Origin: Schmidtea polychroa | Lineage: Eukaryota | Length of the DNA: 64,000 nt | Direction of reading: 5' to 3' | Assembly (NCBI GenBank): GCA_044892525.1 | Contig: CM097887.1 | Location: 55,552,001 to 55,616,000 of the forward strand | Shown here: one piece after another, positions 17,296 to 64,000 of the stretch | Position numbering within the stretch: position 1 is the stretch's first letter | Layout: every line of letters begins with the position of its first letter | Position numbers and translations under genes: made by a program | Notes under the pieces: generated by a model | What the model saw: only the letters and a program-made list of their open reading frames with translations | Database searches by the model: none | What the model was told of the DNA's origin: nothing

Positions 17296-17296
17296 A

Positions 17297-18043: not shown

Positions 18044-18078
18044 AAGTCATTCTGAAGGTCTATGTTTATCCTATAAAA

Positions 18079-19513: not shown

Positions 19514-19537
19514 ACCTATATAATTTTTAAATTAAAA

Positions 19538-19738
19538 ATGAATTCCAGATTGAATGATTTTAGAAGTTTATCATTAGAGGATAAACTTAGAATAGGTGAA
19601 AAGTGTTACATCTTTTATCTTGTAAGAATTAAAGACCGTGATCTTTTAAATAAAATAACTAAATTTAAATATTTAAGCATACAAGACCAAATTGGAAGAG
19701 GAGAATACTATTTTGCTTTATTCCCTCAACTATTTTAA
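19538..19738 (+). CDS. Small hypothetical Polinton protein (66 aa)
   Basis: Has an AAAAATG start context like neighbouring ORFs. No recognised motif. Confidence 0.35.
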   Translation: MNSRLNDFRSLSLEDKLRIGEKCYIFYLVRIKDRDLLNKITKFKYLSIQDQIGRGEYYFALFPQLF

Positions 19739-19748
19739 TTTTTTAAAA

Positions 19749-20186
19749 ATGGATGGCTTTATAAAAAAAATTGAACAGCTTTCAATGATTGACCCTTTAA
19801 TTTTAAACAAGATTCAACAAAAAGAGAAGGCTTTTGAATTTGCAAGATTAAAGAGTTAAAACCCTAAAATGAATCAAAGTGAGATTTGTAAAATAATCGG
19901 GACTTCAGACTCGACGATGAGACGAATTAGAAAGGATTTAGGAATTGACTCTCCCTATAGGCATACAGGCAAGAAGAAAAAGACTAAAGAGACCAAGGGT
20001 TTTTATTGTAAGGATTGTTCAAGTACTGTACTTGATAAAAACCATCAATGCGTCAAGTCTAAAAAGTATCAAAGACAAAAGAAAGATCCTTTAGCCTCCG
20101 GGCCAGACCATTCTGAAGTCTCTACGACTGAAGATGTTGAAGATATTTTAGATCGAACTAGTATCATGTTTAAAAACTTTAAATAA
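19749..20186 (+). pseudogene. Helix-turn-helix protein with one in-frame TAA at 19857
   Basis: MDGFIKK...RLKS*NPKMNQSEICKIIGTSDSTMRRIRKDLG. The upstream ATG at 19749 is in frame with ORF 19869-20186. Confidence 0.6.
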
Positions 20187-20453
20187 ATGGACGAACGTGT
20201 TTTAAACTTGATAAAAAGTGATCCCATCATTAAAAAGGAATCAAGTATTGCATTAAAAGAATATAATGAGAAATCCCCAGAGGATAAAGCCCTGCAAGCC
20301 GCGCAACTTGCTATTCGAGAGCCTGTACTTCTCTGGATTATAAATGATTTAGAGATTCAGTTGATGAAAATCAATAAAGAGATTAAAACCAGAAAGACTT
20401 TAGCCAAGGCAAACCGAGAGAAAATAAAAGAGAAAATAGAAAAGAGGTTATAA
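20187..20453 (+). CDS. Small coiled-coil Polinton protein (88 aa)
   Basis: Abuts the preceding stop codon. Helical, Lys/Glu-rich. Confidence 0.4.
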   Translation: MDERVLNLIKSDPIIKKESSIALKEYNEKSPEDKALQAAQLAIREPVLLWIINDLEIQLMKINKEIKTRKTLAKANREKIKEKIEKRL

Positions 20454-20587
20454 CTATAAAAGTAAAAATTTTTATTATTGAAACAGATGGTCGATTCAAA
20501 CCTTTAATAATATCATTTAAAAATGTTTTGGATAAAAGGACTTTGTCATCTGTTAAAGACTTTAAGTTTTCAAAAATGGATCGCATT

Positions 20588-23500: not shown

Positions 23501-24638
23501 CTTCTTCTGTTGGGGCTTTATATTCTGCTTCTTCTAATATTAAAAGATCTATTTCACGGTTTTTATCTTGATCTAATAATTCTTTATTTGAAATGTAGAT
23601 TGGAATGATATGTTTCTTAAAACCATAATGTTTATGGTGAATATATTCATAAACATTAATTTTAACATTATTCAAGATTTCAAATGTTGGTATATCTTTA
23701 ATTTTCATTGTATGTTCAAAATCTTCTAGATATCTCAACTCATCCTCATAGGGTTTGTATTTTGATACTCTTTGAGGGTTTGTAGCTTGTGGATGTAAAT
23801 GTGCCAGGACTGCCCATTGAAAACATTTGTTATCACTATTTTCTACGTTTATAACACAGTTTGAACGAAAGGGTGTAGGGATGTATGATTTAGGACTTGG
23901 AGGTGCTGCTCTCCAATATTCTATTTGTATATTTTGAAATGAATGGAATCTTAAATCCGATTCCCCTAATTCTTGTTCTTGAGCTTCTTGAACTTCATGA
24001 ATCATATCATTAATAATTTTATTAATCCCTTTAGTTGAATGCAAATATTTATATGATGTTTCGATATAAGAGTCTAAAGGAACTGTATTTACATCTTCTC
24101 CTCTCCAATATCTAGCCAGGATTATAATTTTATATTTTATAATATTAAATCTCGATTTGCCAAATTTCTTTATAGCATCATCCATTGAATTTTTTATATT
24201 TTGTTTGTTTTTCTTTACATATTCCGAGGCTGATGAATCTTTAAATATTTCTTCAAATATATCTATATGATTAAAGTTGTCCCAATTATATTTTTCTTTT
24301 TCAATATGTTCAGGTTCTTCTTCTTCATAGACTTCTTCCTTATCGCTTTCTATATTCTCTATTGTACATTTTTTTAGATGTTTTATATAATAAGATTCTA
24401 TAGATGTTTTAAAATTACATATACCACATTCGAATTTTTTTCTAATTTTAGGAATACCAATACAATTTATAAAATGTCGATCGTATCCAGAAAGTAAAAA
24501 TCTTTCTTTACATTTAGTACAAATTTTTGAGTTGGTGTTATTTAGTTGGTTGGTTTTTAATAAATGAGCTTTTGATCTTTGATGAGATATTAATGCTGAT
24601 CTATTTTTAAAAGTTTTTTCACACGCTTCACAATTCAT
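20588..24638 (-). pseudogene. Protein-primed family B DNA polymerase (pPolB) with N-terminal Zn fingers; internal deletion/frameshift near 22800 and a TAG at 20978-80
   Basis: YIPTP...CVINVENSDNKCFQWAV; KGIYPYDY; YLSLDVYILADCFE; YVDATALYG (motif A); KLLNNAVFGK (motif B); MDTDS (motif C); ISLSNYDDKR. ORF 20588-20899 is in frame with 20978-22804 across a single TAG. Confidence 0.93.
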
Positions 24639-24691
24639 TTTTTAAAAATATTTTTTTATTGGAGTGGGGTGTTTTGAATTTTTAAAATATA

Positions 24692-24959
24692 TATTTATAA
24701 ATTAGCAAACTACGCTACTTGCTATATAGTAGTGTATAAACCTTGCACCCGATCCACAACTCCATTTTTAAGAGCTTCCCTTCCATAATTCAACACAAGA
24801 GGGTGGTTGTTTTTGAAAATATAGGGTGAAAAGGATGAAAAGACTTGAAAAAACTGTTAGATTTTTATATAAAAGTGTAATTTTTAAAGGTATGGAAAGG
24901 TATGGATTTGGTGATCTTTAAGGGGTGGGGGTGGTCGGGTGCAAGGTTTATACACTACT
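24692..24959 (-). repeat. Right Polinton TIR (268 bp)
   Basis: Inverted copy of 11187-11454. The pPolB ATG is at 24638, just inside. Confidence 0.95.
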
Positions 24960-27479
24960 TATGTGTCTTTCAAAATTATTATTATTCTTATAGTGTTGGG
25001 CTAGAACTGATTTCTAGACCCAAATTATAATTGTGACTGAAATGTGTAGGTACACAACATGCAAAAAAGCAAAAAGTATAGCTAAATATTAAAAACTACA
25101 CCAAATAAACAATGGTAATTAAAGGAGAAAGCAACAAAAAATAAACACAGAAATTAAATAAAATTATACAAAAGCAAGAAGTTATGCAAAATCTAACTCA
25201 AAAATAACCAAATAAACATAGAGTTACAAAAAACAAACTCGAATAACTTAAAAGATGGTAAAAACAGTAAAAAATTCAGAAAAACCCAGAACATTCCAAA
25301 AAATGGCGATGACCATCATAAAAGCTACCTTAAACAATAAAATTTAGGAAAAAATAAATAAATTAGTAATAAAAATAAAAAATATTAAAAAGAAATTCAT
25401 AAAACATCAATTAAAATAAAAATTAAATTAAAAGTAATATAGAATGTTCTGGAACCGTTCCAAATCCATCATGGACGTAAAATTAATGAAAAATAATTAA
25501 AAATTTAAAATTTAAAAATAAAAATAAATATTATGGCACAAAAATTGCCATTAAAAATATCAAAATCGCAAAATAGAAAATTCTGGAATAAAAAGAATTC
25601 GAGTTTGTTTTAATGCATCAATACATACACGTAAAATACCATTAAAATAGGTATATATACTGACACGTTTCAGTCACAATCAATCACTTTTATGCCAATA
25701 TTTTTGTTGACGAAAATTTTGCCGAAAAATTAATAGTAGGTATTTTTGATTGATATATGTTTTATCTATGATTAATCACGTATGTAATTATTTCAATTTA
25801 AACCATTTTTAATTAGAATATTGTTAAGATCTATTTTTTTTTACTTTTTAAATACGACTGATCAGCGACGTCTTAGTGCGTCTCTATTTAGTCCTACATT
25901 TGATGGTAATGAATTTTTCTAAAATGAAACATGCAGAATTGCACTATCATTAATATATATATATTTTTTTGTTCGGTCATCGGAGGTCGGCCACTTCATG
26001 GTTCTGCCATGGAGTTGTGTCGATAAAACCCTTCCGCTATGGCTCCAACTATTTATTTATCGGTCGACAGTGATGTTTCGAATCAATATTACAGTAGGGC
26101 TTGTCGTAGCGGTCACAGTGGGGCCGCGTAAGCAAGCATTCTTCCCAAGTTCGAAGGCAGTACACAATTAAACTCAACATTAAAAATCTCGTACAATAGT
26201 TTTACACTAAGGTCATAATTGAGTAGATCTCAGGCCCAAATTAAACACAGCAATTAGAATTCAATTAATGTAGTCGGTTAAGACCTCTCCACTTAGGCGT
26301 TTGTCGAACATCGTTAGTAAATAAAAATTTTTGTAAAGACGTAAGGATTTCTCTCGGATCTAATTATGATGATAGCATCTCGAAGTTCGACAAGCGTAAA
26401 GGATGGAATAGATTCAATTAAGTATAAAACCCCCAGCGAGTAGTATATATCTTTATCTCAGGATTAAAATGTAGTATTGCCAATACCCAAATCGATCAGG
26501 AGTTAGGGTCATATTATAGAAATAACTAACTTCTTTTATTTTTCCACTTATAAATCAATATGAATGAAGTGTTATTAGTTTAGAAAATGTAATATCATCA
26601 ATTATGAACTATTATCGATAAAATCTTTTCAATTTATAAAATAAAATGTTTGATGTGAATGTCTATTCAACTATAAAGTTATATTAGCAACTATAACATA
26701 GATATGCGTGATCCTAACTAACTATTCAATTCATCCCTCAATTAGGAATTACAATCGGGAAACTCGTATAAAATTGTAAATGATTTTATTGATAAATGAT
26801 AAATCATACTTGAGTTCATATACCAGGTCTAAACTAAAAGTCTTCCGCAATCAGTTAACTATGAGGGTATACTTGTTAGATTATATATAAAGCATGAATT
26901 AAAGATACACTCTGATCGTCAAACTACTAGATATATATTGGTTAAATTATAAAAAGTGATTATAATTATGTATATAATATAAGTCAAAATATGCTCTAAT
27001 CATTAAACCATAAGATAAGGATTAGTTAAATTAAAAATTATGACTATAAACTATGTATAAAATATAAACCAAAAATATACCAAACTATAAAGTACCTATC
27101 AGTTAAAAATATAACTACAAATTATTTATAAAAAAAGAAAAAATTTAAAAATTATAAAATAGAATTTGTATATAAAGTGTAAATCAAAAGTATTCTCTGA
27201 TTGTGAATTCTAAATTATATCATAAAATATAATCTTATGCTAATTTTGAAACCTGACTTATAAATATGAGAGGCTATGTATAGATTGTATATGTACGATG
27301 ATAATACAATATAAGCCCTAAACCCAAAATACGACATATAAATGGTAACTGTATCTCGATTATTAACTATAAATGATAAATAGTTATCTTAATTATAAAA
27401 AGTATAAATGATAAACGGTTATCTTAATTATAAAAATACAATCTAAAAATAATTATACATAAAATTTTAATTATAGAAA

Positions 27480-29286
27480 TGTTGGGCTAGAACCGAGAAT
27501 CGAGAGCTTGTTTTAATGAATCAAAAATACATAACAAAAAAATCGCACGAAGTTAAATTAAAACACTAATCAATACAAATTAAAGTACATAACACATTGA
27601 TGATAAATAAGACCCGGGTGAAAAAATAAAGGAATGAAAAAAAAGGTCGCAATCACTAACACAATTAGGAGAAACATCACATTCGGAATAGCTAACCACT
27701 AAGAAATAAAATAATAATAAATAAAATAATGGGTAATGAATTAATTAATAATATGGAAAATTTCTAAATAAATAAATTTAAAATTTAAAATAAATTATCT
27801 AGTAAACTGGAGAAATAATAAAAAATGTAGAATGAAAGTAGTAAAATTAGATAAACCATAAAATTTATAAAACTAAAACTAAAAATAAAACCAACAAATT
27901 ATTTAAATTATACAACTTATAAAACCAAATTGTTTAAATTAATGAAACTAAAGTAAAATTAACTGAACTTATTTAAATTACAAAACTTGTAAAACTAAAT
28001 TAAAATTAGCAAAAAACTATTTTGATTATAGAATTTATAAAAATAAATCTTAAAAGTTAATAAAAATTAGAATTTTGAATACCTAAATTAATTAAATTAA
28101 AAAACAATAATTGCACACATGCATGCATGCATGCAAAAATTAATCAGAATTGCCTCGCATTCTAATTGGATATAGTAGCAGAGAATGCGTAGGCGTACAA
28201 TTCAATCAGTATAAATACAGATTGAAATTTCAGTTGTTCAACTTGTTAAATTAGTTTTCAGTTTTACACAACAAATCGTTTGTCAGGTAACGAACATATG
28301 CTCTCAATTTTCGATTTTATGCCCTTGTGGATTGGACTGGTAATTTTATTTTAATGTGAAATTTTAGGTAATGTTTTAAGTTAAATAAATTTTATATTCA
28401 ATTTAGTTTAGTTTTTTTTATTATTGTTTAATTCCATTTAGTTTCAAGTTTGAAATAATAGTTTTTATTGAGTTTATTTATATTATTTGTTGATTGTGAA
28501 CGATAGTAACGTGGAGTTGAGGAACTTCATGTCATGACATGAGGTGCCTTCGGGAGCTCAGCCGGTGGACATGAGGTTCTTCAATCACGCAGCTGGATTG
28601 GGCCGAAATGTGGGGGCTTCCTCACGGGTCCTATCGCTGGAAGTACTTTGGCCAAACATAGGTTAGGACTGAGAATACAGGCAGATCCCTGCTCAAATTT
28701 TTTGAAGTACAATTTAAATATTATGGGAAGCGCGGATTAACTTGGAAATAAGGGCCAATCCCTGCTCAAATTTTTCAAAGGATAATTTAGATATTGTAGG
28801 AAGTGTAGAACAATAATTATTAGCTGGAAAATAAGGGCCAATCCCTGCTCAAATTTTTTTTTGCGAGAAAGTTTAAATATTCATAAATATCAAAAGAAAT
28901 ACCTAGCAACCTTTATTAATAGAAAAATAAGGGCGCATCCCTGCACAAAATTTTGAAAAGAAAACAATAGAAAACAACTAGAAATGAAGACCATAACCGA
29001 ATGAGATAGAAAAGTAAAAATAGAAAATGATCAATGACGTAAGACCTTCTATCGGCCGTCTAGAACCCGAAGAGAAAATACAATGGGGAGTAGTTTTAGC
29101 AATAGAGCTCACCTGCTCATTGTTTTTTCGCCTTTGTGTACAGTACCAACATGGTCGTCGCCATGGGTACACAAATGGTTAAATTGCAATAGTCATGGAG
29201 GTGCTTAGGAAAGAGTCGAGTGAATATATATGATTACCCCTAATGCATTTAAAAATTTAAAATGACACACCCCTAAGTAACCAACA
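27480..29286 (+). mobile_element. Element C: 1.8-kb solo-LTR-like relative nested in the AT array of A
   Basis: GAAA|TGTTGG...CCAACA|GAAA, with perfect 6-bp inverted termini and a 4-bp TSD. Removing it restores the array unit. Confidence 0.85.
28675..28955 (+). repeat. Four dispersed direct repeats (AAATAAGGGCCA)ATCCCTGCTCAAATTTT in element C
   Basis: TCCCTG cores at 28686, 28759, 28842 and 28938. Confidence 0.8.
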
Positions 29287-31466
29287 GAAATATAATTTAT
29301 AAATAGTTATATATAACTCTGAATTTAAAATATAAAGTATAAATACTCATTGGAAATTATTAAAATATAATCTATAAAGAATCATACCTAAAATTTTGTA
29401 AGAATATAATTTATCAATAGTTATGTGCAAATCCGAGTTTAAAAATATAACGTATAAATGGTTATATGTAAATTATCAATGTATCTTAATTATAAAATAC
29501 GATCTACAAATGATTATACATAAAATTTTGGCTATGAAAATATAATTTCTAAATAGTTATGTATAAATTTGGATTTAAGAATATAAATTATAAATAGTTA
29601 CATATAATCATATATATACATGGACCTTAAAAATATAAACTATAAATAGTTAGGAATAAATTTTACTTACAAAAATATAAATTATAAATAATTATGTAAA
29701 AATTTTGATTATAAAATATAAAGTATAAATAGTTATATATAAATTATATACGGATATTGATCATAAAAACATAATCTATAAATAGTTACGAATAAATTTT
29801 ACGTACAAAATATAAATTATAAATGATTATATATAAATTTTGATTACGGAATATAAAATATAAATAGTTGGTTATAAATTATATAGGTATATGGATGGTT
29901 ACGGATTAATTTTACGTACAAAAATATCAACTATAGACGATTATATATAAATTTGGATTATAAAAATATAATTTATGACTAGTAATATATAAATTATAAA
30001 TGTAGTGTGTCTATAAACCCTAATTATAAACAGTCATATATAACCTCTGATCTTAAAAAACACGAATTCTGGATAGTTATTTAGAGTTACTAATGCAACT
30101 AGATTATAAGAGAAAAACCAGGGATAATTATATATATAAATTATGTATGGATCTGGATTATCGAGATTGAAATTCTAAATAGTATTATAAAATTATGTGT
30201 AAGAATGCAAATTACAAGTTTGTATTTTGACTAGAACCTAAATTATAAATACCTAAACTATGAACTGTATTTCTCTCCAAGATATAATTCATGATTACTT
30301 ATATTATATGAACTACCTCTACCGATTAAGGATAAATTATAATCCATAAATGAGTGCTGTTCCTGAAACGCAAAAAAATTTTTTTTCAAGGATATCACTG
30401 TATGCTAGCTGAACCTTACAAAATAAGTATTGGCATTTGCTATGATTAAGATCATCACTAGCACTGTTATTCCTATCTCTATCGCTCCCCATAATTACCG
30501 TTATCCTGAATATCATCATAATTCCCCTTACTGCATTACAAATTAGTTACAATAATTGTTAGCATAAAATCAGATTTGTACCACAAAATTTAGCTTACCT
30601 TGAAAAATGGGAAATTGCATATCCAAGCATTTAGTGTACGAACATAGAAGTAAAATCCCAACTAAAACACGCAGCCATGAGTAGGCTTCTTTGGGAGGAA
30701 ACCAGCAGGGTGAACGCTACCGATGCGAACTCGGCATTGGAATTTCATGAAAGCTGGGCATAAATCCACGATTTCAGGTAAGTTAAGGGGCATTTTTGAT
30801 TACAATATCACCGTAGCATTGAAATTGATATTCGTCCGGAAATGGACCAAACAACCTAAAATTCGTATAAAACGGTCACACTGAATATGACAACCCGGTC
30901 TAAGTGAGGATGAGGTGGGAAACTAAGCTCCAACAGCTCACCCAGCACCAACGGGGCTGGTTGATTCAGTAGTTAAATAATTAGCATAAAATAAAATATT
31001 ATGTCGATGACATAACAAACATTAAAAATAAACCATAGAATTTTCAATAATTAGGTTAGATAAACAAAGTGCAAATTTTTTTTTAAAAATATAAAAGTTG
31101 ATTTGCTGAATTAACACGGTCAAATAGAATTAGATCTTCAGAAATTAATTTTTGTTATTTTTTTTTATTTAACTGTGAATTTGGTAGAGTATTTGCGGTA
31201 CTGATTTAACAGTGGAAAAAGAAAATTTTTAATTTATAAATTACATAACGGATTAATAACCGAGATTTAAATCAATATACGCTCAATTTAGCAAAATCCA
31301 TAATTCCCCCACAATCTATAACGCGGATTATGATAAGACGATCCACAAATGGACCCACTCATCATTTTTGCGACTTAGTCGAATGGATAGACCATAGAAA
31401 CGAAATTCCGAACATACCAAAAATTGATACTAATATCTCCTTTAATTGGGCTTATTTAATAGCAGA

Positions 31467-31829
31467 ATGTCTCAAACAAGTGGACCCGACGAAGTGGAAT
31501 ACAGGCAGATGATCACGCGGCTCCGGACCCGGTACATCTGGTACCGGATCCACGATTGGAATCGGGGGTTGGACCTGGATAATTATGGTCCGGTCATTCG
31601 AAGTGGCCCAGAGCCCGACGCCCCGGCGTGGGTGAAAACAGAGCCCACCAACAATGTGTTACGAGAAGCCCGCGATCGAGCGGCCATCGAGGTAGAAGTG
31701 GCCCAGATGCGGCTGAGGAGACTCGAACTCCAGCTCAGAGCCGAAGCAGAGGGAGTAACCCCCGAGGAGCTGGAGGAGGCAGATACCCCTCCACGAAAAC
31801 GAGGGAGGCCCCGGAAGAACCCGGCCTAA
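31467..31829 (+). CDS. Element ORF1: 120-aa protein with a coiled coil and a C-terminal AT-hook
   Basis: The ATG at 31467 aligns with the ATG at 61584. C-terminus PRKRGRPRK. Paralogous to 61584-61949. Confidence 0.8.
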   Translation: MSQTSGPDEVEYRQMITRLRTRYIWYRIHDWNRGLDLDNYGPVIRSGPEPDAPAWVKTEPTNNVLREARDRAAIEVEVAQMRLRRLELQLRAEAEGVTPEELEEADTPPRKRGRPRKNPA

Positions 31830-32062
31830 CTTATCGGTAGTGATAATTCGGACGAAACTATTTGATTGATATACTTTAGCGATACTGTGTTGCGTTTGAT
31901 ATTTTGTGGTTTTTGTAGCAATTATGACGAATTGTAGAAATTTTTATTATTAAAACTTTTACATTATAGTTTGTCGTGCGTATTCATCGTGTAATAAATC
32001 ATCTTTTAGTCATTACATAGAAGTCTTTTCAGCTTTTTAACTATTTTTCAGGAACCATTAAA

Positions 32063-33699
32063 ATGTCGAAGGATCTCCGAATAGCATGCTGGGATTGTAT
32101 TTGCTCCAATATTCGAGATATAAGCCAAAGTACTTATACATATGCTGACAAGCTTATCTCTGGAAGTTTTGTCATTGAAAACTTGGTCCGAGAACAGCAT
32201 ATAGACTTCCTAGATGCATTCGAAGCAGCCATAAAAATATGGCAATCTAACGTAAATTATAATCAGAATTACCTTTCCTTTATGAATAATGATTCGTTAG
32301 AAAAACATGCTTTTTTTAATAAAAATGTTAATTTTAAAGAAAAATTTAAAGAAAATGTTAATTATAATAAAAACCCTAATAATTTTAAAAAAACCTTAAA
32401 AAAAATTAATATAAGTAATGAAAATTTTATTAAAAAACAAGTTATTAAAAATAAAAACGTGAAAACCCTTGATATTAAAAACGTGAAAAATTTACAATTT
32501 TTTGAAAAGAAGCATGTTAATTATTTCCTTAATGATTGTAGAAAATTTTATAAAAATAAAAAAGCTAGAAATAAAAAACGAAAAAAATTAAAGAAAAAAC
32601 AAATTCAGAATAATTTGTTTAAATTTTCCTCAAAAACCAGATCCGATGACAACGATAAAAATTTTTTTCGTCCTCCTTCGGAGGATAACAGATACCACTA
32701 AAAAACCTCTGTATGCTAAACCAAAACAAACCATCAAATTATGGAACCCCAAATCATCTATCTATATAAATTTACCAAGACCACACTACGCTTGTCCTAT
32801 TCCAATTAAACCACTTAATAATCAAGAAATCTTTAATCGTAGGAAATGTAAAATTAAACATAATATGCGTTTTGAATACCTCATAACAAATGCGGAACCA
32901 ATTTGGTCAGAAGCCATCATCAGCAATACCAATGAACCAGATGCTAAAATATCCAATCATAATGACTTAGATGAAAATAACATCAACCCTATAGAAGATA
33001 GCCGGATAAAAAATGACTCTTATTTAACAGCTTATCTAACAGCTAAAAAAATAATAACTCCAGCATAATTAATACTGATAATACCAAACTAATACCGGAA
33101 ACTTCTGACGATAGCACTATAGAAAATGACTCTTATTTAACAGCTTATCTAACAGCTAAAAAGAATACATCCAAAGTAACCACTGTAAACCAAGTTAATA
33201 CTGATAATAACAAATTAATTCCCCAAACCTCAGAACTAGATAACTTTTTTCTAAATTAATAAACACTATTCTAAGGAATGGTGGCAATGATAGCATAATT
33301 GAAAATGAAAATAATAGTGACAAAAACATCTACCTATTAGAAGATAGCTCTATTGAAAGGGACTCTTATCTAAAAATAGGGCAATCTAACAATGGATATG
33401 CCTTACCTATAATAAATAACTACAGAGGAAGCTTTAGTTTTTCGGATATAGGTAGAATGAAACTGCGCGTTTTAAACAGAGATAGCACAAGTGAAAATAA
33501 AAATGATAGTGACGATTGTATAACCAAACCAGAAAATGATAAAGATGACGAATATGAAACTCATTTAGAATCCGATGCCAATAAAGTTAAAATGATACCA
33601 AAATTAAAAGAAACTCCAAAAAATAATATATCGCCAAATGCTCATAAAAAAAACCCTATCAAAGCTAATAACAAAAAGAAGAAGGGAAAACGTCATTAA
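32063..33699 (+). pseudogene. Cargo ORF unique to element A: Lys/Asn-rich, frameshifted, internally repeated
   Basis: ORFs 32063-32701, 32646-33068 and 33457-33699 lie in tandem. NDSYLTAYLTAKK is repeated at ~33015 and ~33125. Absent from element B. Confidence 0.45.
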
Positions 33700-34337
33700 G
33701 AGTGTATATTATCAATAGGTCAATGTAGGAGTCCTTGTATGGGCTCCGCCTAACTGATAATACCTTTTTAGTAGTTAATATTTGTAATATAAAATCTTTC
33801 CTTTAAAACCACCTTACCTTAAAACACCATTCCTTCCAATCCATACTATAATATATTGTATAATATCTGACGGCTACAAAAATCGCAAATGGAGTCTTCT
33901 TACTCCGAAGTATTAAATTCATTTAGATATGTATGGACACGGAATGCTTGCTGATAGAATACTTTATGGAGAACCGCGTTTGATGCCAGAATTCGAGGAC
34001 TGATACTGTGAAAGAAAGAACTAAGCCAACGCTTGCTGATTGGTGATAAAATACTTAGAAAAAACCACGTTTGATGCCAGAGTTCCTAACTCCAGCATCC
34101 AAAGAGAATACACATAAAAATTTCAGTTTATTTAAGGGTGAGAACCGTTCTCCCCTTCGGCCTTGTGCCAGTTCGATTTACATAAAATAAAATTTGATTT
34201 TTTTTTTATTGCGTATGGGGTGTCTCCAGGGACGAGATGACCCTCCCTATCCTTCATCTATTAATTCATGCAATTAATCGAATCACTTTTACGCATATGG
34301 AAGCTAGTTATGGAACTTCATTATTATCTTCATTTAG

Positions 34338-34777
34338 TGTACAAATTCCTCGAAAATCTACGAAAAGACCGCGAACAGGCCCAGCAACAAGCCGAAGACC
34401 TTCGAAGTCGAGTCGAGAAGCTCAAAACCAAGTGCCGAGAACTCGAAGGTACTTGGTTCAGTCCAGCTGAGATGAAGAAACGGACAACACACATCTCACA
34501 ACTCCAGACCCAAGCGGAGCAGGATCAACTCGAAATCCGAGCGTTGAAGCTACAAGTACGCTCGCTCGAGAGCAAACTGAACGAAAAGTTCATCCAGAAC
34601 GCTCTCCGAGAGCAGATTCGTCCACTTCCGGTGGAGCTGGCCAAGATATACCCACCTGCCCAGGCAAGCAAGCCGAAACGTAAGCGGCTAGGGCGGAATA
34701 CCCGGGAAAAATTGAAAAGGGCCTGGCTGGCCGAGCAAGAAAAAGCGAAAGAGCCTGAAGCCACTCCACAATCCTGA
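34338..34777 (+). CDS. Element ORF2: coiled-coil protein with a basic C-terminal patch, probably entered through a splice acceptor
   Basis: ENLRKDREQAQQQAEDLRSRVEKLK...WFSP...EIRALKLQVRSLE...KPKRKRLGRN. Similarity to B begins exactly after AG at 34336-37. Confidence 0.75.
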
Positions 34778-36516
34778 GGAATATTTGAGAATGCGACCCC
34801 TCCTGAGTAAAACAGACCTTGTAATATAGTAGTGGATAAACAAATGATTCTTGTTGTCTAATGAATATGTGATCAAACTTTGTGATTGTCCAGAACCAGA
34901 CAGTCGGCAGAAAGGCGTTTGGGAAAACAATCTCGATAAGGGACCGAAATAAATCGGACACGTGCCTTCTATCGGCGTCCGTGAACCCATAGAGTGCTCG
35001 ACAATTATAGTGCTCGACAATTATAGTGCTCTTAACGCGCTCACTTTTTGCGAGTACTCAACCCCTTGGTACAGTACCAACGTTGATTGCTCAACGGGTA
35101 CCAAGAGGAAAACAAGGTTGTATTCTGGGTTACGCTGGTAACAGCACTTAAACATTCAACCACCTGTAACCCACCAATAGCATATGTTTTGAAATCAAGA
35201 TTATAATTTCAAATACTAATTATAATTTTAAATACTAATTAAGATTATTTATTTTGTAATTCTAAATAATAATTAGTCCCCGTAATATATTTTATTTTAA
35301 TGTACATGAACATCGAAACATGAAATAATATTCCAAAAAATTAATAAGATGCACAGTAATAATAATTGTCAAAAGCATAAACTAATGTACGTAGAACATA
35401 AGTCAATAATCGAATTCCAATGATAATCGTCACTGTTTTGACTTGTCCGGCTTTGGTTATCTGGGTTCCATGTAGATATTGACTCTGAACTTGTTGATAC
35501 CCGTTCTATAGTAGTGGGTCAGTTCGAATTCTTCAATTCTCCTTCCTCTGTCATCCAACATTACTTTAATAAAAAGAGCATATTTGTGCGACAAAAGTCA
35601 TAGAAAATTGTTTGAAAATTTATTTTATTAAAAGTTTTATGTACAAATATGAGCTTTGGGGTCTCAAAAAATACCCCGCAACCTCTACTAACCGTGAATA
35701 TATTAGTTTTAAACGAATTTTCCCATAATTATAATTAAAAAATAATAGTCGTATTATGTTAGGACTAATGTGGTAATCTTCATTTTGTGTTTAATCTTGC
35801 ACAAAAATGTCAAACATTCGAAAGGTCCTAAGACGGCTTCTGTTTTTCATTGATATTTCTTAGTGGAGAACCTAGTCTTATATTGTAACCAATATTTTAA
35901 TTTATTTTAATAATATATTTTAAATAATCGTGAAATGAATAATATTCAATAATTAAAGACTTTCTTAAATGCAAATTATTTTGTCAATCTTTGCTATGTT
36001 AGCGTTTGGAATTTGATATGTTTTATTGTGCATTTTAATTACTTTTCGATACCTCATTTTGCGATATTTAATATGTTTTCACAGATTTTTACTGAACTTT
36101 GTGTTCTAGCATACATATATTATAACAACTTTTTTCAATTTATACCACCGATTTCTTTTTATTTGACTGTATTTATTAAAAACTTGACTATGAATTATTA
36201 AATATATCGATTTTTTTATATTCTCGAATTTCGGCACTACCTTTTTCAAATGATATGTATAATTAGCACCTTTGATTCTGTTCCTACATAATTTTAACTT
36301 TTACTCAAATGAATGCTTTGAAAAATATTCTACAATTTTGCAATAATTGTGTTTAAACATTTAACATTTTTTCTACTGTACAATATAAAAACATGTAAAA
36401 ATATATAGCATAAGTCAGAGACGAATATTTTAAACAATCAATTTTTTATAAGTATAATATATCAATTAAACTTTAACTATTAATTCTTTTGTTTAAATAA
36501 TATTCAGTTTTCAGCT

Positions 36517-38657: not shown

Positions 38658-40720
38658 TGTTTGGCTAGAACTGATTTCTAAACTCATATCTTAGAATAGT
38701 GACGGAATATGCCGGTACACAACATACATACCTAGCTTTAAGTTTAATTAAATTTAAATATATAAAACACCGAATAAACAATAATAATAAGGAGAACAAC
38801 ACACAAAACTTAAAACATCCAACTAATAAATTAAAACACAGCAAGAAGTATTGCACAAAAATTTATTCAAATATCCGAGAAACATAAAACAATAAAAACA
38901 AATTCGAATAAAGGCAAATAATAAAAAGAAAAAAGAAAAATTTCATAAAAACCTTATGTAAAGAAAATTATATAAAAGTTTTTGAATAATAATTAGAACA
39001 ATCCAAAAAATGGCGAAATACATCATGGCCGTCAAACGACCTAATAAAATTTATAAAAAATAAATATTTTAGTTTAAAATAGAAAAATTTTCGAAAAGAA
39101 TTCACAAAAAAAACATTCCATGTTAAATTTTCAGGGGTTTTCATTATTATATTCCCATGTTTTCATTCTTATATTCCCATGAAATTGATATTATTTAAAT
39201 TCATGACAAAATATATTTAATCAGGTGAATATACAAATAATAGGTTATTCTTTCTTAAATATATAAATCGTTGAAACCAGAATTATTCAATCAAAATCTT
39301 AAAAACTTAATTAATTTTATAAATGGAGAGGAAAACAAGAAAAACTGTAACTCGAGAATTATTTGATTTGGTTTGCACTTTATATGCAACATATCGACAT
39401 AGTATAGCTGAGATCAGCAGAATAGTAAGTCTAGAGAGAAAGACTGTCGGGAAAATAATAAGACAGCACGAAAATAATGAACCTTTTGTTCCTGCTGCAT
39501 AGTGAAGGTCTAACACAATCTTTAGCAAAAACAACAATTTCGCAGAAGTAGAACAGACCATTTTCAACTCTTTTGCTATCGAAAATTCGCATATTCAAAA
39601 CGAGGTCAAAAATATCATTCAAGAAAGACATAATGTGACTATAGGCTTGCCTAAAATCAGTTGAAGAATCAGAAAAATAGGATTGAGTAGAAAGAGGTTG
39701 ATGCTCTAGCAATTTATGCATCTCAAATATCCAGAATAAACAATGAAAATATAATTTTTTTGGATGAAACTAGATTTAATCAACATTCACATAGATATTA
39801 TGGTTATTCTGCTGAAAATGTTAAAGCATATGTGCAAGTGCGGGCCAATAAAGGCACTAATATAAGTTTAATGTGTGCTGTTGGGTATGAAGGTGTGATA
39901 GCATATGAATATAAAACTGGTGCATATAACTCAGAAAGTTTTATAAACTATATTAATGAGAAGCTATCGCCATATTTTAGAAGGTATCCTCATAAAATTT
40001 TGGTTATGGACAATGCGAGAATTCACAAATCTTCGACCGTATTGCGAACTTTTTCGGATTTGCAAATACTAATAAAATATCTTGTGCCTTATTCACCAGA
40101 ACTTAACCCAATAGAAGAATTTTTTTCTATGATTAAATCACGTTTTCATGGTTTACAATTAAATAACACAGAAAAAACAATCGAAGTGTGTTTAGATGAT
40201 CTATTAACAGCAGGAACGGATTATTCTAATCAATGCGAGGGTTTTTATCTGAATATGCGTAGGTGGCTAGATAAAGCTTTAAGAAGAGAAATGTTTATAT
40301 AAATAAATATTTATACGCTTTATTTTTGTTTATAAATTGTTTTGATAGTTTCTTATTTATATAAATATTTAAATATATGTTAACATTTATTTATTTTTAT
40401 GGGAATATAATAATGAAAACATGGGAATATAAGAATGAAAACATGTGTAATCTATCTCTAATGCCTATATCCAAATTTAATAAAAAATAATTCAAAAATA
40501 AAATTTTGAAAAATAAAACAAAAATTATTACTTTAAAATCGCCATCAAAATTGATAAAAATTAAGAATCGAATGTTCTAGAATTAAAATAATTCGAGTTT
40601 GTTTTACTGCATCATTGTACACACACTTACTTGCACACCAACAATAGGGTATATATGCCGACACATTTTATTCACAAGTTACTCTTTTATGCCAAAGTTC
40701 TTTTCTAATTTGATCAACTG
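38658..40720 (+). repeat. Fragment E: 5' part of a TGTTGG-family element, interrupted by a Tc1-like transposon
   Basis: Starts TGTTTGGCTAGAACTGATTTCTA. Contains AAAAAATGGCG...CATCAT. Resumes after 40449 with AAAATCGCCATC and AATTCGAGTTTGTTTT. Confidence 0.7.
39138..40449 (+). mobile_element. Tc1/IS630-like DD34E transposon, decayed (transposase remnant 39323-40302)
   Basis: An N-terminal HTH remnant precedes FLDET...VMDNARIHK...PYSPELNPIEE, with 34 residues between D and E. Inverted ends are built from 22-bp TTTTCATT(A/C)TTATATTCCCATG units. The right end is followed by TA. Confidence 0.85.
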
Positions 40721-56867: not shown

Positions 56868-56933
56868 TCGTAGGTTACAGGTAATCCACATTTTATCCTT
56901 TCATGCTGTTTCCAGCGTAACCTAGAATACAAC
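56868..56933 (-). repeat. Fragment G: isolated 3'-terminal stem-loop of the A/B family
   Basis: The minus strand reads GTTGTATTCTAGGTTACGCTGGAAACAGC...ACCTGTAACCTACGA and abuts ATAG (56864-67). Confidence 0.75.
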
Positions 56934-59214
56934 TGATTCATTCTACCATTCTAAACTTGGGAAAATTGAGAATATTCTGGTAAATTGTAATCGTAAAGTT
57001 TCATTGGCATTTCGTAAACTCTGACAGCTGTCGAGATATATGTATTTTATACAATCCAGCATCTCGGATTTCCCATGACATTTCCGCTCTCTTTCTTGAA
57101 AAAGCCATCGAGATAACAAGCCAATCCAAATTTTGTTTTGCTTCTATGCACTTGTAATTAATAATGGCCTTCTTTCATTTAATCGCCTGTTTTTATTGAT
57201 TTTCTTCTATACTCTTCTCATTTTTCAATAATTCATAGTTTCTCCACAATATTAATAATATTGTCTAGAAAAGATACTCTTTTTACAATACTCTTTAGGA
57301 ATTTAAAGAACATAAGAAAGGTATTTCCAAAATATAACTGCCTTTTTTGGTACACCTTTAATTGATTTAATCAACTAACTCTAAAACCATTCTTTACTCG
57401 TTGAAATATTTTAAAATAAATCTATCCTAAATTTTATATTCAAACAAATTGGTTTCTAAGTCTTTTATGGTTTCAAAACAAAATAATTAAATTATGCAAA
57501 CAACAAAATAATTAAGCATACTTTATAACCAAAGATTCTGTTTAGCTAATTTGATTTTAATTAAGTACAAAAATTAATTAAAAATTGACATTTGATTGTA
57601 AGTAGTGTTTCCAAATTACCGGAATTACAATTACCTGGGTATTCGAGTAGTAATTTTTCAAACTATCCGGGTAATTTTAAAAATTCATATAAATTTGTAA
57701 AAACTATATTAAAAAATCTGGAAATAATAAATTACAAAACAAATATGAAAATAAATTACTATAGTGTTGGGCTAGAACTGATTTCTAGACCCAAACTTCT
57801 AATTATGACCGAAATATGTAGGTACACAACATGCAAAAGGCAAAAAGTATAGCTAAATATTAAAAACTACACCAAATAAACAATAATGATTAAAAGAGAA
57901 ACAACAAAAAATATAAACACGGAAATTAAATAAAATTATACAAAAGCAAGAAGTTATGCAAAATCTAACTCAAAAATAACCAAATAAACATAGAATTACA
58001 AAAAACAAACTCGAATAACTTAAAAAACGGTAAAAATAGAAAAAAATTCCAGAAAAACCCAGAACATTCCATAAAAATGGCGATGACCATCACAAAAGTC
58101 ATCTAGAACAACAAAAGTTAGAGAAAATAAATAAATTAGTATTAAAAATAAAAAATCTTAAAAAGAAATTCATAAAGCATCAGTTAAAATAAAAATAAAA
58201 TTAACATGGAATGTTCTGGAACCGTTCCAAATCCATCATGGACGTCAAATTAATGAAAAATAATTAAAAAATAAAAATTTAAAAATAAAAACAAATATTA
58301 TGGCACAAAAATTGCCATTAAAAATATCAAAATCGCGAAATAGAAAATTCTGGAATAAAAAGAATTCGAGTTTGTTTTAATGCATCAATACATACACGTA
58401 AAATACCATTAAAATAGGTATATATACTGACACGTTTCGGTCACAATTAAATCACTTTATTTTTGTCGACGAATTTTTTCGAGAAACCAATAGTAGGTAT
58501 TTTTTTTTGATTGATGTAATTCTATGTTACATATGTTAATCATTTATGTAATTATTTTAATGTAAGCTATTTCTTATTTAAAATGTCCTCAAGATCTAAT
58601 TTTTGTCTATTTAAGTACGACTGATCAGCGGCGTCTTAGTGCGTCTCTATTCAGTCCTGCATTTGATTATAATAATTTATCTTATGAAACACGCATACAT
58701 GCATTATTATTATTTATAGAACTTTTGTTGTTCGGGTCAGCCGGAGGTCGAACTACTTCATGGTCCTGCCATGAAGTTGGGTCGAGGAAATCCTCCGCCT
58801 GACTCTCCTTATTTATTAAAGGTCAGCCGTAAATGGTTGACTTAGCATACAACATTAAGGTTTGTCGAAGTGGTCACAGTGGGGCCATGGAAGCAATATT
58901 CTTCCCGACTCAATGCACACATAGTCAAACTCAACATTTAAAATCAGCCCAACAAAAATACCCTAAGGTTGATAAATTGAGTAGATCTCATACCTAACTT
59001 AATGACAATTTTGCAAGTTACATTCAATTTAGACGGTTAAAGTATCAATCTCAAAGCATAATATCAATTTCCAAGTATAATCTTAATCATACTATATAAC
59101 TTAAGTGGGGTATAATCGAAAAGTTGACCGCTCATACAGTTTGAAAAGGCAAAGGATGGAAATGCCCTACTCCCAAGACAGTTTTTACCCGTATGTTATT
59201 CTTAAAGATGTGAT

Positions 59215-60720
59215 GCGTAAAATGCACTGCCTCCAACCTATCAACTATAATCATTTACTAAGTGGAAAATTGTAATTTATACCACCCTATCAACTATAAT
59301 CATTTAATAAGTGGAGAATTATAATTTATATAACCAAAATTACAATATGTGATCACTTTCAAATTCCGAAATGTAATTCATCAACATATAGCTATAGAGT
59401 ATTTCTAAGTCCTCGAGTTGAAAATATAATTTATCAATCCATGATGGTAAACGATAATTATTTATCAGACGTAAAAGTATAATTTATAAATATTTAGTTT
59501 ATCGTTTTAAGTCCGAAAATATAATTTACGAACCTCTAATTATAACGTATAAATGGCTTTCCGATGTTAAAAACATAATTTATAATCTCGTAATTATATC
59601 ATATGATCAATTTTAAATTCAGAAATAATTTATAACCATGTAAATATAAAGTCTAGCCGAGCGTTGATATAACTTATAAAATCCATAATTATAAATTCTA
59701 GTTATTTACCTAACGTAGAAATATAAATTCTAAAACCCAATGATTACCAAATAAATCCTTTTGAAGTTCGAAAATATAGTCATAGACATCTAATTAAGAA
59801 ACGTAATTGGTTTTCAAAGTTAAAAATATCATTTATAAATTTATAACTATAAGCATAACCATGTATTACGGGTAAAATATAATTCATTTATAAGGTATCA
59901 GTAAACTATGAGTTAAAATAAATTGTATAAGTCTACAACTATAATTATTTTCAAGTATAAAAGATATAATTTATTCAAAAAACATAATCAAAGTTCACTG
60001 CTGGAATTATAATTTACATATGACCATAACCATAACCAGATATCAAGAAAAAATGCAACTTATATTATCCGCTATAAAGTACCAATACATTTCGAGTTGA
60101 AAGCATAATTTAGAAGTGTAAAAAAGATAACTTATTATCAAGTATAATCTAAAGTTACCGTTAGGATTATAACTTATACATAAATATAATCCATAATTCA
60201 TAACCATATATTAAGTATACAATGTAACTTATAATTATTCACTATAAAATACAAATAACTTTCGAGCTGAAAACCTAATTTAGAAGTGTAAAAAATATAA
60301 CTTATTCATAAAGGATAGTCTAAGTTTACCGTTAGAATCATAACCTATACATGAATATAAGCTATAACTACATCGCGAGTAGAAATTGTAATTTATAATT
60401 GCTCACTATAAAATAAATTCCAAGCTAAAACCGTTTATAAGTGCAAGGAATATATTCTAGTCATATAGCACAATTAAGTTGACAGGTTAAGATTATAATT
60501 CATAAAATTATAACTATAAAATATAACGATGTATTAAGTATAAATACAATTGGTAATTTTCCCACTATAACGTACGAGCAAAAATTCGAGTTAAACATAG
60601 CTTAGATATGACTATAAATTGCAATTATTTTCAAGTTCGGAGACATAATTAATTAATTTTAAGTTGGAATATAATTTATAGCAGTATACCCACCATACTA
60701 TAGTAGAACTACTCAATGTG
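59215..60720. repeat. Degenerate ~43-54-bp AT-rich tandem array in element B
   Basis: Recurrent (G)AAAATATAATTTAT. A 49-bp duplication at ~59233-59330 and a ~171-bp duplication at ~60088/60259. Confidence 0.7.
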
Positions 60721-61583
60721 ATTTATAAGTGGAACTACCACGAACCCCCTAATATGCTAGTTTAACTTTGAGACACGTGCCCTATAATCGTTATTAATCG
60801 TAAATGCCATCATTATGACCACTGTTGTTGCTTTTGACCTAGAAGGGTGAATTTTAAACTAAAACTCGAATTACAATATATCTTAAATTCACTTACCATA
60901 AGGAGATCTCTCTGTTCAATCATTTTTCGTATTAACCAGCATCGAAATCTTCAGAAATGTCGAGGAGCCAGTAACAGATAGGGTGATTATTCTTCTGGGA
61001 TAGGGTTGATGGAGTAGTTTTCTAAAAAACGAGGAGAAGCAAAGTATAAAAAGCAGATCAGGCTATTATGAACAGCTTCGCTGACGAAGAGACATTGGAT
61101 TGCGACTCAACGATGAGTCCCTCCGTCGACGAAGTCTTCCTTTGAAGCCAATAGGGTTAATAAATAATTAGAAAATCTGAATTAGACATTTAAAATTTTT
61201 GAATAATTTTCTGTATTGTAAATAATTGATTAATGGTTTTGAACCATTAAAACAATCGAATTTAATTCTTAATCCAAACCAATGGAAAACCAAATTGACA
61301 GGCCGAACACTATAGGGAATATAGATAAACCCCAAACGAAAATACAATTTTGGATAATTTCCTTTTGGTTGGGTTGTTGGCTTGTTTGGAGGTTAGGCTC
61401 CTGAATCACCACCGAGTTAGGTATCAACAGATTGTGCCTGTGATGAAATAAAGGTGATGTTAAAGCCCCTTAGGTGAGTTCCCTGGTTACGGATTGCTAA
61501 TGGAAATTTAATCTTAAGTCTATAGTCTAGACATTTTTCACCGCATAATAATCAACAGACTTATATTTTGGGTAATCATAGAT

Positions 61584-61949
61584 ATGTCACAATCAAGCAG
61601 TCATAGTGAAGAGGAGGACCACAGGCAAATGATCACACGGCTCCGTACACGGTACGTCTGGCACCACATCCACCGGTGGAACCAGGGACGAGACCTGGAT
61701 TGCACAAATCGAGTGATCAGGAAGGGCCCCGAAGTAGATGCCCCGGCGTGGGTGAAGGAGGAGCCGGAAAACGATCTTTTGCAAGAGGCCCGTGACCGAG
61801 CGGCCGTCGAGGTGGACGCAGCCCAGGTGCGACTGAGAAAGCTCGACCTGCAAATCCGGGCAAACCGAGAAGGAAAGGCTTTGGAGGACCTGGAGGAGGC
61901 CGAGGCGACCCCGCGAAAAAGGGGGAGGCCTCGCAAGTACCTGGCCTAA
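61584..61949 (+). CDS. Element ORF1 (copy B): 121-aa coiled-coil + AT-hook protein
   Basis: RQMITRLRTRY.W..I..WN.G.DLD...APAWVK.EP...EARDRAA.EV...PRKRGRPRK is shared with 31467-31829. Confidence 0.8.
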   Translation: MSQSSSHSEEEDHRQMITRLRTRYVWHHIHRWNQGRDLDCTNRVIRKGPEVDAPAWVKEEPENDLLQEARDRAAVEVDAAQVRLRKLDLQIRANREGKALEDLEEAEATPRKRGRPRKYLA

Positions 61950-62214
61950 CTCATTCCCAATTCTAACTCACGATGGACATGTAGCCTGATTTATGTGATG
62001 ATGATCCTCACTTGAATAAATTCCCTCTTTACTAGATTAATAAATTTGATTTGATGATGAACTTTACTTCGAACAAATTGCCTCTTTAATAAATTATCGC
62101 AAAACGATTTGATTCATCATAATGATAAAATGTCTTTATAATCAGTACTGACCTTATTATATAATCGACCGAATCTCATGGTGTAATGACATAATCTAAG
62201 CATATTCCTTTCAG

Positions 62215-62645
62215 TGTTCAAACTGTTTGAGAACCTACGGAAAGACCGAGAAGAAGCACAAAAACAGGCCGAGGATCTCCGAGCCCGAGTGGACAAACTC
62301 AAGGGACGGTGCCGGGAACTAGAAAACACCTGGTTTAGTCCCGAGGATATGAAGAAGAAGGTGGCGCAGGTCCTCCAACTGCAAACCTAAGCGGCACAGG
62401 ATCAGATGGAGATCCGGGCCTTGAAGCTCCAACTCCGTGCGTTAGAAACCGAACGCAATGAACAAGTGGTTCATGGAGCCGCAATAAGTCAAATCCGGCC
62501 GTTGACCGTGGAGTTGGCAGCAATGTATCCTCCGGCCGCGAAAGACAAACCCAAAAGGAAGCGGCTGGGACGGAACATCCAGGAAAAATTGAAGAAAGCT
62601 AGACTGGCCGAGTATGAACGCCAAGAATGGTCGACGTCCACGTAA
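62215..62645 (+). pseudogene. Element ORF2 (copy B): coiled-coil protein with one nonsense codon (CAA>TAA at 62388)
   Basis: ENLRKDREEAQKQAEDLRARVDKLK...WFSP...LQT*AAQDQMEIRALKLQLRALE...KPKRKRLGRN aligns without gaps to copy A. Confidence 0.8.
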
Positions 62646-64000
62646 TCTCCGCAATATGAACAGTTATTTAGGCTATACGCCTTGAATTTTCTTTTGTTAT
62701 TGTTATGGGTAAATACATTTGCGTTAGAGTATTGTATGAGGTATGTTGTTCGCAAATATTGAGTGATTGAGAATGAGTGTGTTGAGATTTTGGGAAAACA
62801 ATCTCGATAAGGGACCGAAAGAAATCGGACACATACCTTCTATCGGTAGTCCGTGAACCCATAGAGTACTCGACAATTATAGTGCCTCGATGCGCTCACT
62901 TTTTGCGAGTACTCAACCCTTGGTTCAGTACCAACGTTGATTACTCAACAGGTGCCAAGTGGAAAGAAAATGTTGTATTCTGGGTTACGCTGGTAACAGC
63001 ACTGAATAACAAACACCTGACCACCTGTAACCCACCAATAGTTATTCTTTATTAAAGAAATATTTAAAAAAACTAGTGCATTTAATGTTGCAGGACTCAT
63101 TCTGTTTCTAAGTTTATTGCAAAATATCCCAGCAATAGAAAATATACGTTCCGATGCAGTAGATGTTGGTTTCACCGTCAGTAAGGCTTGATATAATTTC
63201 ATATAATCTCTCTGTTCAAGATCCATTATTTGCTTCTAATAGCTTTAACTCTTTCTCAACTGTTAGTGTAACACTATTTTCAGGAGTTTGATTTGTGAAC
63301 TTAGCAATACATTTTTGAAATACTAAATATTCACTACCTGTATCTAAATATTCGTCGGATTGTAATTTTAGTCTATCTAATTCATTAGTATTGCTTAGAA
63401 ACAAACGTACGATTAACGAAGCTGCCAATTGCTTGATTACAGCTTTCGAGGCGCAGCAAAAGAATTCGTTAAATATTGGGTACACTCCATTGTGCAATAG
63501 CATTAACAATGACGTCAAATCCTTATTTCTGCGTTGGTCAACACGTATTTTTAACGAATTTTTCAACTCCTCTGCTGAAGGTGTTACTTTTACTTATCAC
63601 TTATTTAATGGCTTAAAGTTTGTATACACAAAAAATTTAAATGACAAAAGGAAAATTAAATTTTAAATAGTTTTTACATATACATTATAGCAACCACCCA
63701 CAAAGCCTACTTATATAAAATTAATAGAAATAAACTTATTTTATTATAAATTCATATTCAAACCAATTGGGATGGCTAATAGCACCGTCTGCAAGAGTAT
63801 TGTATTGTAAGTGATAGAAATTATGAACAATTTCAAATGAGAAATATGATGTGAAAATTATTTGAACATCAATAATTTGTTATCCGGATATCCGATTCAA
63901 TTACCTGGGTAATAAAATACTCGAAAAAACACTCAAATTATCGGGTACCCGAATTGGAAATACTAATTGCAAGGATTGCAAATAATGAGATATATATAAT

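What the first reader, a model, noticed from the sequence alone, without database searches (positions are those of the whole stretch)
35109..35176. Covarying 3'-terminal RNA structure with a GNRA tetraloop
Seen: A and B have a TGGGTTAC...GTAACCCA stem enclosing GCTG-GTAA-CAGC. The diverged copy G (56868-56933, minus) has TAGGTTAC...GTAACCTA, a compensatory G-C to A-T change, and GCTG-GAAA-CAGC. Established: GUAA and GAAA are both GNRA tetraloops, typical of folded functional RNAs. Inference: this is a selected RNA element at the very end of the element (packaging, priming, processing or catalytic). I cannot assign it to a known ribozyme class.
Basis: partly seen in the sequence, partly recalled or inferred. 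Interest (0 to 1): 0.7.

Follow-up and report, generated by a model that had tools for sequence, protein, structure and literature searches.

The report
Primer-site stem of giant retrotransposon LTR

Summary
The stem and GNRA-type loop are real, but the reading is wrong in two ways. (1) Position: 35109-35176 is the U5 end of a solo LTR (24994-35176, TG...CA, ATAG duplication) of a Burro giant Gypsy element. In full-length copies it lies 8 nt before a tRNA-Pro primer binding site, so it is 5' leader RNA, not a 3' terminus. (2) Covariation: genome-wide the claimed pair is G-C 2171, A-C 21, G-T 20, A-T 1 (copy G itself); 0.21 expected by chance, p=0.19. The loop reads G[T/A/C]AA in 117 of 120 copies. 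Real covariation lies upstream: three further domains (34955-35105) shared by diverged Burro families (domain III lower stem 95% paired, 18 two-sided changes versus 1.5 in a tree null; G-U 40, A-C 6). The terminal stem is closed by a helix crossing the LTR boundary in all four families with a primer site. A conserved GAACCC(G) matches the tRNA-Pro T-arm, like the HIV primer activation signal. Hammerhead core absent; no Rfam match.

The parts
24994..35176 (+). Copy A: solo LTR of a Burro-type Gypsy element, TGTTGGG...CCCACCA, 4-bp target duplication ATAG (24990-24993, 35177-35180); two later insertions at about 27480-29286 and 32027-34206
   Evidence: 93-98% identical in blocks to other solo LTRs
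35118..35123 (+). TTGTAT, 5' strand of the basal helix; its partner (last A of the LTR plus TACAA of the leader) exists only in 5' LTRs followed by the primer site, not in this solo copy
35126..35173 (+). Domain IV of this family: stem TGGGTTAC/GTAACCCA, hairpin GCTG-GTAA-CAGC (35134-35145), variable arm 35146-35165
35170..35176 (+). Terminal CCCACCA, imperfect inverted repeat of the LTR start TGTTGGG (integrase attachment end, inferred); overlaps the 3' arm of the stem
35065..35105 (+). Domain III: lower stem, conserved 8x1 internal loop AGYACCAA/G, upper stem, variable apical loop; strongest covariation
35009..35058 (+). Domain II: long stem with a conserved internal loop at GCTCAC (35039); a 16-bp tandem duplication precedes it in this copy (34993-35008)
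34983..34988 (+). GAACCC, complementary to the T-arm of host tRNA-Pro; candidate primer activation signal (inferred)
34955..34981 (+). Domain I: CGGAC/GTCCG stem with inner hairpin GCC-TTCTATC-GGC
31467..31829 (+). LTR-borne ORF ending in RKRGRPRK (AT-hook-like, label recalled); no Pfam family above cut-off
34338..34777 (+). LTR-borne coiled-coil/basic ORF behind a predicted splice acceptor; TWFSP and KPKR motifs kept in other families
57765..63037 (+). Copy B: second solo LTR, 5273 bp, ATAG duplication; same four domains at about 62800-63037
56868..56933 (-). Copy G: decayed remnant of an LTR end, domain IV only

Best explanation
The interval is the U5 end of a solo LTR of a Burro giant Gypsy retroelement, and in full-length elements it is predicted to fold as the last domain of a four-domain 5' leader RNA that likely controls tRNA-Pro-primed initiation of reverse transcription. 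Shown: LTR anatomy, an 18-nt site complementary to host tRNA-Pro(UGG) 8 nt after the LTR end, covariation in domains II and III on the sense strand, and family-specific complementary sequences across the LTR/leader boundary. Inferred: the domain IV stem plus the boundary helix hold the primer site just outside a long stem, as U5-leader stems do in retroviruses; tRNA annealing frees its T-arm, which would pair with GAACCC(G) between domains I and II, as with the HIV-1 primer activation signal; the terminal bases also serve as the integrase end in DNA. The GNRA hairpin is a family-specific cap, not the conserved core. The solo copy in this window has no primer site and is a relic.
For: 11 of 16 non-full-length loci are 5-6 kb TG...CA solo LTRs with 4-bp duplications (5 unresolved); 4 of 4 extended loci are about 35-kb elements with LTRs 99.7-100% alike and matching duplications. 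Pfam: zinc knuckle, MATH, viral fusion glycoprotein, protease, RT, RNase H, integrase, ankyrin, the Burro layout of PMC6431247 (passages). Primer site matches ARAGORN-called tRNA-Pro(TGG); 1052+6 exact sites. 74 non-redundant copies: domain III lower stem 95.0% paired (tree null 61.9+-6.2%, 0 of 500 reach it), 18 two-sided branch changes (null 1.5, max 5); domain II outer stem 84.7% in 42 copies, 8.8 changes (null 1.0); G-U versus A-C 40:6 and 33:10. Boundary helix TTGTAT/ATACAA, GTCATG/CATGAT, GTTATG/CATGAT or CATAAT, ATCAT/ATGAT in four families; mean predicted pairing 0.87 (39 leaders) and 0.95 (31) with the primer site blocked. Of 66 tRNA 7-mers, nt 49-55 (T-arm) has a perfect complement in 8 of 17 groups, next best 4; chance about 0.04 for any free tRNA 7-mer, 0.003 for the T-arm strand; the A-to-G variant GGACCC keeps pairing by G-U.
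Against: No transcript start, poly(A) site or expression was shown; AATAAA lies at scattered places and is missing within 700 nt upstream in 17 of 52 copies. Within this family the domain IV stem shows no lineage-level two-sided change, and G-to-A at its second pair arose about 8 times without repair. An all-pairs covariation scan of 37 copies gave no pair at E<0.05 (best 0.44); the significant tests use a structure read off the same sequences, and the upper stem of domain III was partly fixed by the search pattern. 50 of the fetched 5' LTRs of this family were picked by a pattern fixing both sides of the boundary helix. The GNRA hairpin has predicted probability only 0.34 in one leader. This family matches the T-arm at 6 of 7 (24 of 25 representatives), two other families at 5-6 of 7, and the motif can also pair with the primer site itself; the predicted opening on tRNA binding is small (0.44 to 0.58) and partly trivial.
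Confidence: 0.6

Rival explanations
1. The leader is real RNA but mainly a packaging, dimerisation or nuclear-export signal, bound by Gag or by the basic LTR-encoded protein (Rev/Rex- or Tat-like), and closeness to the primer site is incidental.
For: Domain III is a stem with a conserved 8-nt bulge, like protein-binding RNA elements (analogy recalled); GNRA loops often make tertiary or intermolecular contacts (recalled); the LTR ORF keeps TWFSP and KPKR motifs in diverged families.
Against: The boundary helix and the T-arm complement point to the primer; apical loops vary freely and are not self-complementary; no binding data.
Confidence: 0.17
2. Domain IV of this family is conserved for DNA reasons (integrase end and nearby protein sites); its palindromes and GNAA loop need not fold.
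For: The 3' arm overlaps the terminal inverted repeat; stem and hairpin are almost invariant, so covariation cannot vouch for them; weak z-scores; third arm missing in abundant young subfamilies.
Against: The 5' arm, 44-51 bp from the end, is as invariant; A-to-G at one pair keeps a G-U in 5 of 120 copies; the third arm shows GGTA/TACC versus GGTG/CACC; other families build an equivalent stem from different letters; only the N of GNRA varies.
Confidence: 0.14
3. It is a 3'-end processing or stability element in R, acting at the 3' end of the transcript.
For: The LTR is present at both ends; the poly(A) site is unmapped.
Against: The closing helix needs leader bases found only after the 5' LTR; AATAAA, where present near the structure, mostly lies upstream of domain I.
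Confidence: 0.05
4. It is a self-cleaving ribozyme or hammerhead derivative, as in plant retrozyme LTRs.
For: Three-way junction with an AYGA linker in some subfamilies, loosely like a type III hammerhead.
Against: CUGANGA 0 of 120 and GAAA before the closing strand 0 of 120; linker and third arm lost in subfamilies with near-identical LTR pairs; no Rfam match.
Confidence: 0.04

Closest known systems
Burro / GYPSM1 giant gypsy-like LTR retrotransposons of planarians (PMC6431247, passages read)
   Same: Over 30 kb, about 5-kb LTRs, a polyprotein frame of about 4800 aa with Gag knuckle, MATH, env-like fusion domain, PR-RT-RH-IN and ankyrin; thousands of copies.
   Different: The passages read say nothing of a structured U5, the primer tRNA or the missing polypurine tract; identity to Burro1 itself was not measured.
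HIV-1 PBS domain and primer activation signal (PMC1865047, abstract, introduction and methods read)
   Same: 18-nt primer site after U5, stem enclosing the region, short upstream motif complementary to the primer's T-arm.
   Different: Here 6-7 nt, about 200 nt upstream, tRNA-Pro, in a Gypsy element; function untested; 2 of the larger families match only 5-6 of 7.
U5-IR / U5-leader stems of avian retroviruses and Tf1 (recalled; only the title of Lin and Levin 1998 seen in a reference list)
   Same: U5 bases pair with leader bases across the LTR boundary beside the primer site.
   Different: Here both strands of the boundary helix lie 5' of the primer site, and three more conserved domains precede it.
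Ty1 and Ty3 extended tRNA contacts (PMC3592414, PMC5371799, passages read)
   Same: Retrotransposon RNA pairs with the primer's T-arm beyond the acceptor stem.
   Different: Those use tRNA-iMet and split primer sites; here the site is a continuous 18-mer.
Retrozymes, hammerheads in plant LTRs (PMC4918200, search listing only)
   Same: Structured RNA with a three-way junction inside an LTR.
   Different: Hammerhead core absent; element autonomous and about 35 kb.

Membership tests
LTR retrotransposon, Ty3/Gypsy | TG...CA direct terminal repeats with 4-6 bp target duplication | tested here: met
LTR retrotransposon, Ty3/Gypsy | PR-RT-RH-IN order | tested here: met
   protease 405-496, RT 718-876, RNase H 939-1068, integrase 1177-1348 of the second part
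LTR retrotransposon, Ty3/Gypsy | tRNA primer binding site after the 5' LTR | tested here: met
LTR retrotransposon, Ty3/Gypsy | polypurine tract before the 3' LTR | tested here: not met
   5 of 5 elements examined carry a conserved palindrome and a GC-rich motif instead; this does not unseat the class but is unexplained
Burro / GYPSM1 | over 30 kb with giant polyprotein carrying MATH, env-like and ankyrin domains | tested here: met
Burro / GYPSM1 | sequence identity to the published Burro1-4 | not testable with these tools
   no reference sequence held; Grohme 2018 not held
Retroviral U5-leader/PBS domain | helix across the U5/leader boundary next to the primer site | tested here: met
   computed folds and family-level sequence change; no probing
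Retroviral U5-leader/PBS domain | region lies in U5 of the genomic RNA | tested here: inconclusive
   no start or poly(A) site mapped
Primer activation signal | complement to the primer tRNA T-arm upstream of the primer site | tested here: met
   7 of 7 in 8 of 17 groups, 6 of 7 in this family
Primer activation signal | enhances tRNA-primed but not DNA-primed extension | not testable with these tools
   needs an in vitro assay
GNRA tetraloop hairpin | G-N-R-A loop on a closing stem, N free | tested here: met
   118 of 120 loops fit GNRA; N changes about 9 times; position 3 is A in 119 of 120, so R is barely sampled
Hammerhead ribozyme | CUGANGA and GAAA core | tested here: not met
   0 of 120 each
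Other Rfam ribozymes and cis elements | covariance-model match | tested here: not met
   none at gathering score in the window; 9 loci, one weak lncRNA hit (E 0.14) outside the leader

The most novel reading that the evidence does not exclude
Burro elements carry a complex-retrovirus-grade leader: a four-domain RNA with a true primer activation signal for tRNA-Pro gated by the terminal stem, an undescribed 8x1 bulge motif read by an LTR-encoded basic protein, and plus-strand priming without a polypurine tract.
Probability: 0.2. Interest if true: 0.65.

Novelty: new variant of a known kind. Interest (0 to 1): 0.33.

Why it matters
Structured primer-site leaders are well studied in retroviruses and yeast Ty elements but little in animal Gypsy elements. 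Thousands of diverged copies in one genome give a natural covariation data set, and the T-arm match makes a cheap in vitro test of whether primer activation signals reach beyond retroviruses. The called hairpin by itself is a family-specific detail, and its claimed compensatory change is a warning about reading covariation from one decayed repeat copy.

Tried and rejected
Compensatory change in copy G: rejected. DIRS, Helitron or Penelope end: rejected by TG...CA ends, 4-bp duplications and Gypsy pol. tRNA-like CCA 3' end: rejected, the CCA is the LTR end. Hammerhead: core absent. HDV-like, twister, pistol, hatchet folds: compared by eye from recalled consensus only, and no Rfam match. All-pairs covariation scan: not significant with 37 copies. 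Expression: no RNA holder listed; one search covered a coding stretch, not the LTR, and is uninformative; no reads were laid on the LTR, so start, poly(A) site and splicing stay open. Protein atlas gave no result for the LTR ORF. Paper searches (listings seen) showed no title or abstract on Burro leader structure; subscription papers, Grohme 2018 and its supplements, Lin and Levin 1998 and Repbase were not available and may bear on novelty. No covariance model was built; other planarian genomes are not held.

Full report
Observation. The letters are as described: TGGGTTAC (35126-35133), GCTG-GTAA-CAGC (35134-35145), a 20-nt arm, GTAACCCA (35166-35173), CCA (35174-35176). A 22-nt pattern finds three copies in the window and none in 100 shuffles. 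Folded alone the pieces are weak (z -1.69, -0.99, -2.57 for A, B, G). Rfam has no match in the window or in the leaders of 9 loci.

What carries it. The genome (781 Mb, four large contigs) gave 1918 first-look candidates, 40 scored. Copies end sharply at CCCACCA. Of 20 loci extended by 10 kb, 11 are 5-6 kb TG...CA solo LTRs with 4-bp duplications, 4 are 3' LTRs of longer elements and 5 were unresolved. Those 4 proved to be about 35-kb elements with LTRs 99.7-100% alike. Their polyprotein has zinc knuckle, MATH, viral fusion glycoprotein, protease, RT, RNase H, integrase and ankyrin domains, the layout given for planarian Burro/GYPSM1 elements (PMC6431247, passages). A planarian host is inferred from this. 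Window copy A is a solo LTR at 24994-35176 and B one at 57765-63037, both with ATAG duplications; G is a short decayed remnant.

Where it lies in the RNA. After 5' LTRs come 8 nt and an 18-nt site complementary to the 3' end of host tRNA-Pro(UGG); 1052+6 exact sites exist. By the established LTR cycle, the LTR end is U5 and sits at the 5' end of the genomic RNA. That the whole fold is in U5 is inferred; start and poly(A) sites were not mapped, and AATAAA is scattered or absent.

The claimed covariation. Exact patterns over the genome give G-C 2171, A-C 21, G-T 20 and A-T 1 at that pair; independence predicts 0.21, p=0.19. The one A-T copy is G. In 120 fetched copies the stem and the inner hairpin are nearly invariant; only two cells show a two-sided change, each in a single copy. 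On a tree made without these columns (91 copies) G-to-A at that position arose about 8 times with no partner change. These samples were partly chosen by pattern, so frequencies are not genome-wide.

What holds in the interval. The loop is GTAA 64, GAAA 45, GCAA 8, GAGA 1, AAAA 1, GTAG 1; its second base is the only freely changing one in the hairpin, as a GNRA loop would predict. Many long-armed subfamilies add a third helix with GGTA/TACC versus GGTG/CACC; abundant young subfamilies, A's among them, lack it. TTGTAT (35118-35123) is complementary to the last LTR base plus the spacer before the primer site. Three other primer-site families build the same boundary helix and terminal stem from different letters and have no GNRA hairpin; mean predicted pairing is 0.87 and 0.95 (39 and 31 leaders). 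A helix needing bases outside the LTR can form only in the 5' leader.

The larger fold. Upstream lie three domains shared by all families sampled. A family-blind pattern for domain III has 5452 matches and 0 for its control. In 74 copies under 93% alike, its lower stem, which the pattern did not fix, is 95.0% paired against 61.9% in a tree null (0 of 500), with 18 two-sided branch changes against 1.5 (0 of 150); the domain II outer stem in 42 copies (29 of this family type, 2 misanchored and 1 unanchored left out) gives 84.7% and 8.8 against 1.0. G-U outnumbers A-C 40:6 and 33:10, which points to sense-strand RNA. Against this: the structure was read from the same sequences, and an all-pairs scan of 37 copies reached only E=0.44, though its two best pairs are in domain III. 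RT segments of these families are 89-99% identical, so all are Burro relatives.

Mechanism. Between domains I and II lies GAACCC(G). Of 66 7-mers of the tRNA, the T-arm 7-mer has a perfect complement in 8 of 17 groups; the next has 4. With 14 equally conserved 7-mers the chance is about 0.04 anywhere on the free tRNA and 0.003 on the T-arm strand. HIV-1 uses such a motif to activate its primer (PMC1865047, abstract, introduction, methods), and Ty1/Ty3 RNAs also contact the T-arm (passages). This family matches 6 of 7, the motif can also pair with the primer site, and the predicted opening on tRNA binding is small. I therefore give 0.6 to control of primer initiation, 0.17 to packaging/export, 0.14 to DNA-level conservation of this domain, 0.05 to 3' processing and 0.04 to catalysis (hammerhead core 0 of 120).

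Novelty. Five paper searches (listings) showed no account of this leader, but key papers were not held. The scan has reported the same leader on other DNA of this genome; my reading was logged before that look-up, and the notes supplied the U5-IR/U5-leader wording used. A word look-up for the activation signal returned nothing.

Noticed in passing
L050:4840-4908 and the matching place in the elements: No polypurine tract before the 3' LTR. 5 of 5 elements have the palindrome AATTGCG-GG(A/T)-CGCAATT followed by a GC-rich motif partly complementary to the primer site; plus-strand priming is unexplained.
   Followed up: partly
domain II, e.g. L135, L178, L215: In several families the 3' strand of domain II (GGGGCTCA) copies 8 nt of the primer site, so the tRNA 3' end has a second complement in the leader (4 of 17 groups).
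   Followed up: partly
L268-L270: A 15.6-kb element with 1.6-kb near-identical LTRs and the same leader; only one frame over 300 aa and no RT motif found by my pattern; may be non-autonomous.
   Followed up: partly
L111 (G000:C1 about 130.9 Mb): Tandem array of tRNA-Pro(TGG) genes with a 475-bp period; 1555 pattern matches in the genome.
   Followed up: partly
window 11186-24960: Polinton-like element with terminal inverted repeats (11186-11454 / 24692-24960), double jelly roll capsid and polB Pfam hits; LTR A starts 33 bp after it.
   Followed up: partly
window 14230-15100: Perfect 436-bp-arm palindrome inside that element, duplicating part of one frame; rearrangement or assembly artefact.
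   Followed up: no
window 32027-34206: 2.2-kb insertion in LTR A with three AT-rich frames of 151-226 aa and no Pfam match, ending in a T run.
   Followed up: no
window 7361-8857, 39691-40302, 51368-52487, 62945-63593: DNA-transposon fragments; DDE_3 and hAT dimerisation Pfam hits for two of them.
   Followed up: no
window 54020-55291 (+) and 1275-5371 (-): Intron-free lipase-like frame (PF24708); short exon-like frames resembling a TRPM channel (label recalled, not tested).
   Followed up: no
L271-L282 versus L065: RT segments are 98% identical among three families whose domain IV sequences are unalignable, and 89% to this family: the leader letters change far faster than RT while the fold persists.
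   Followed up: partly
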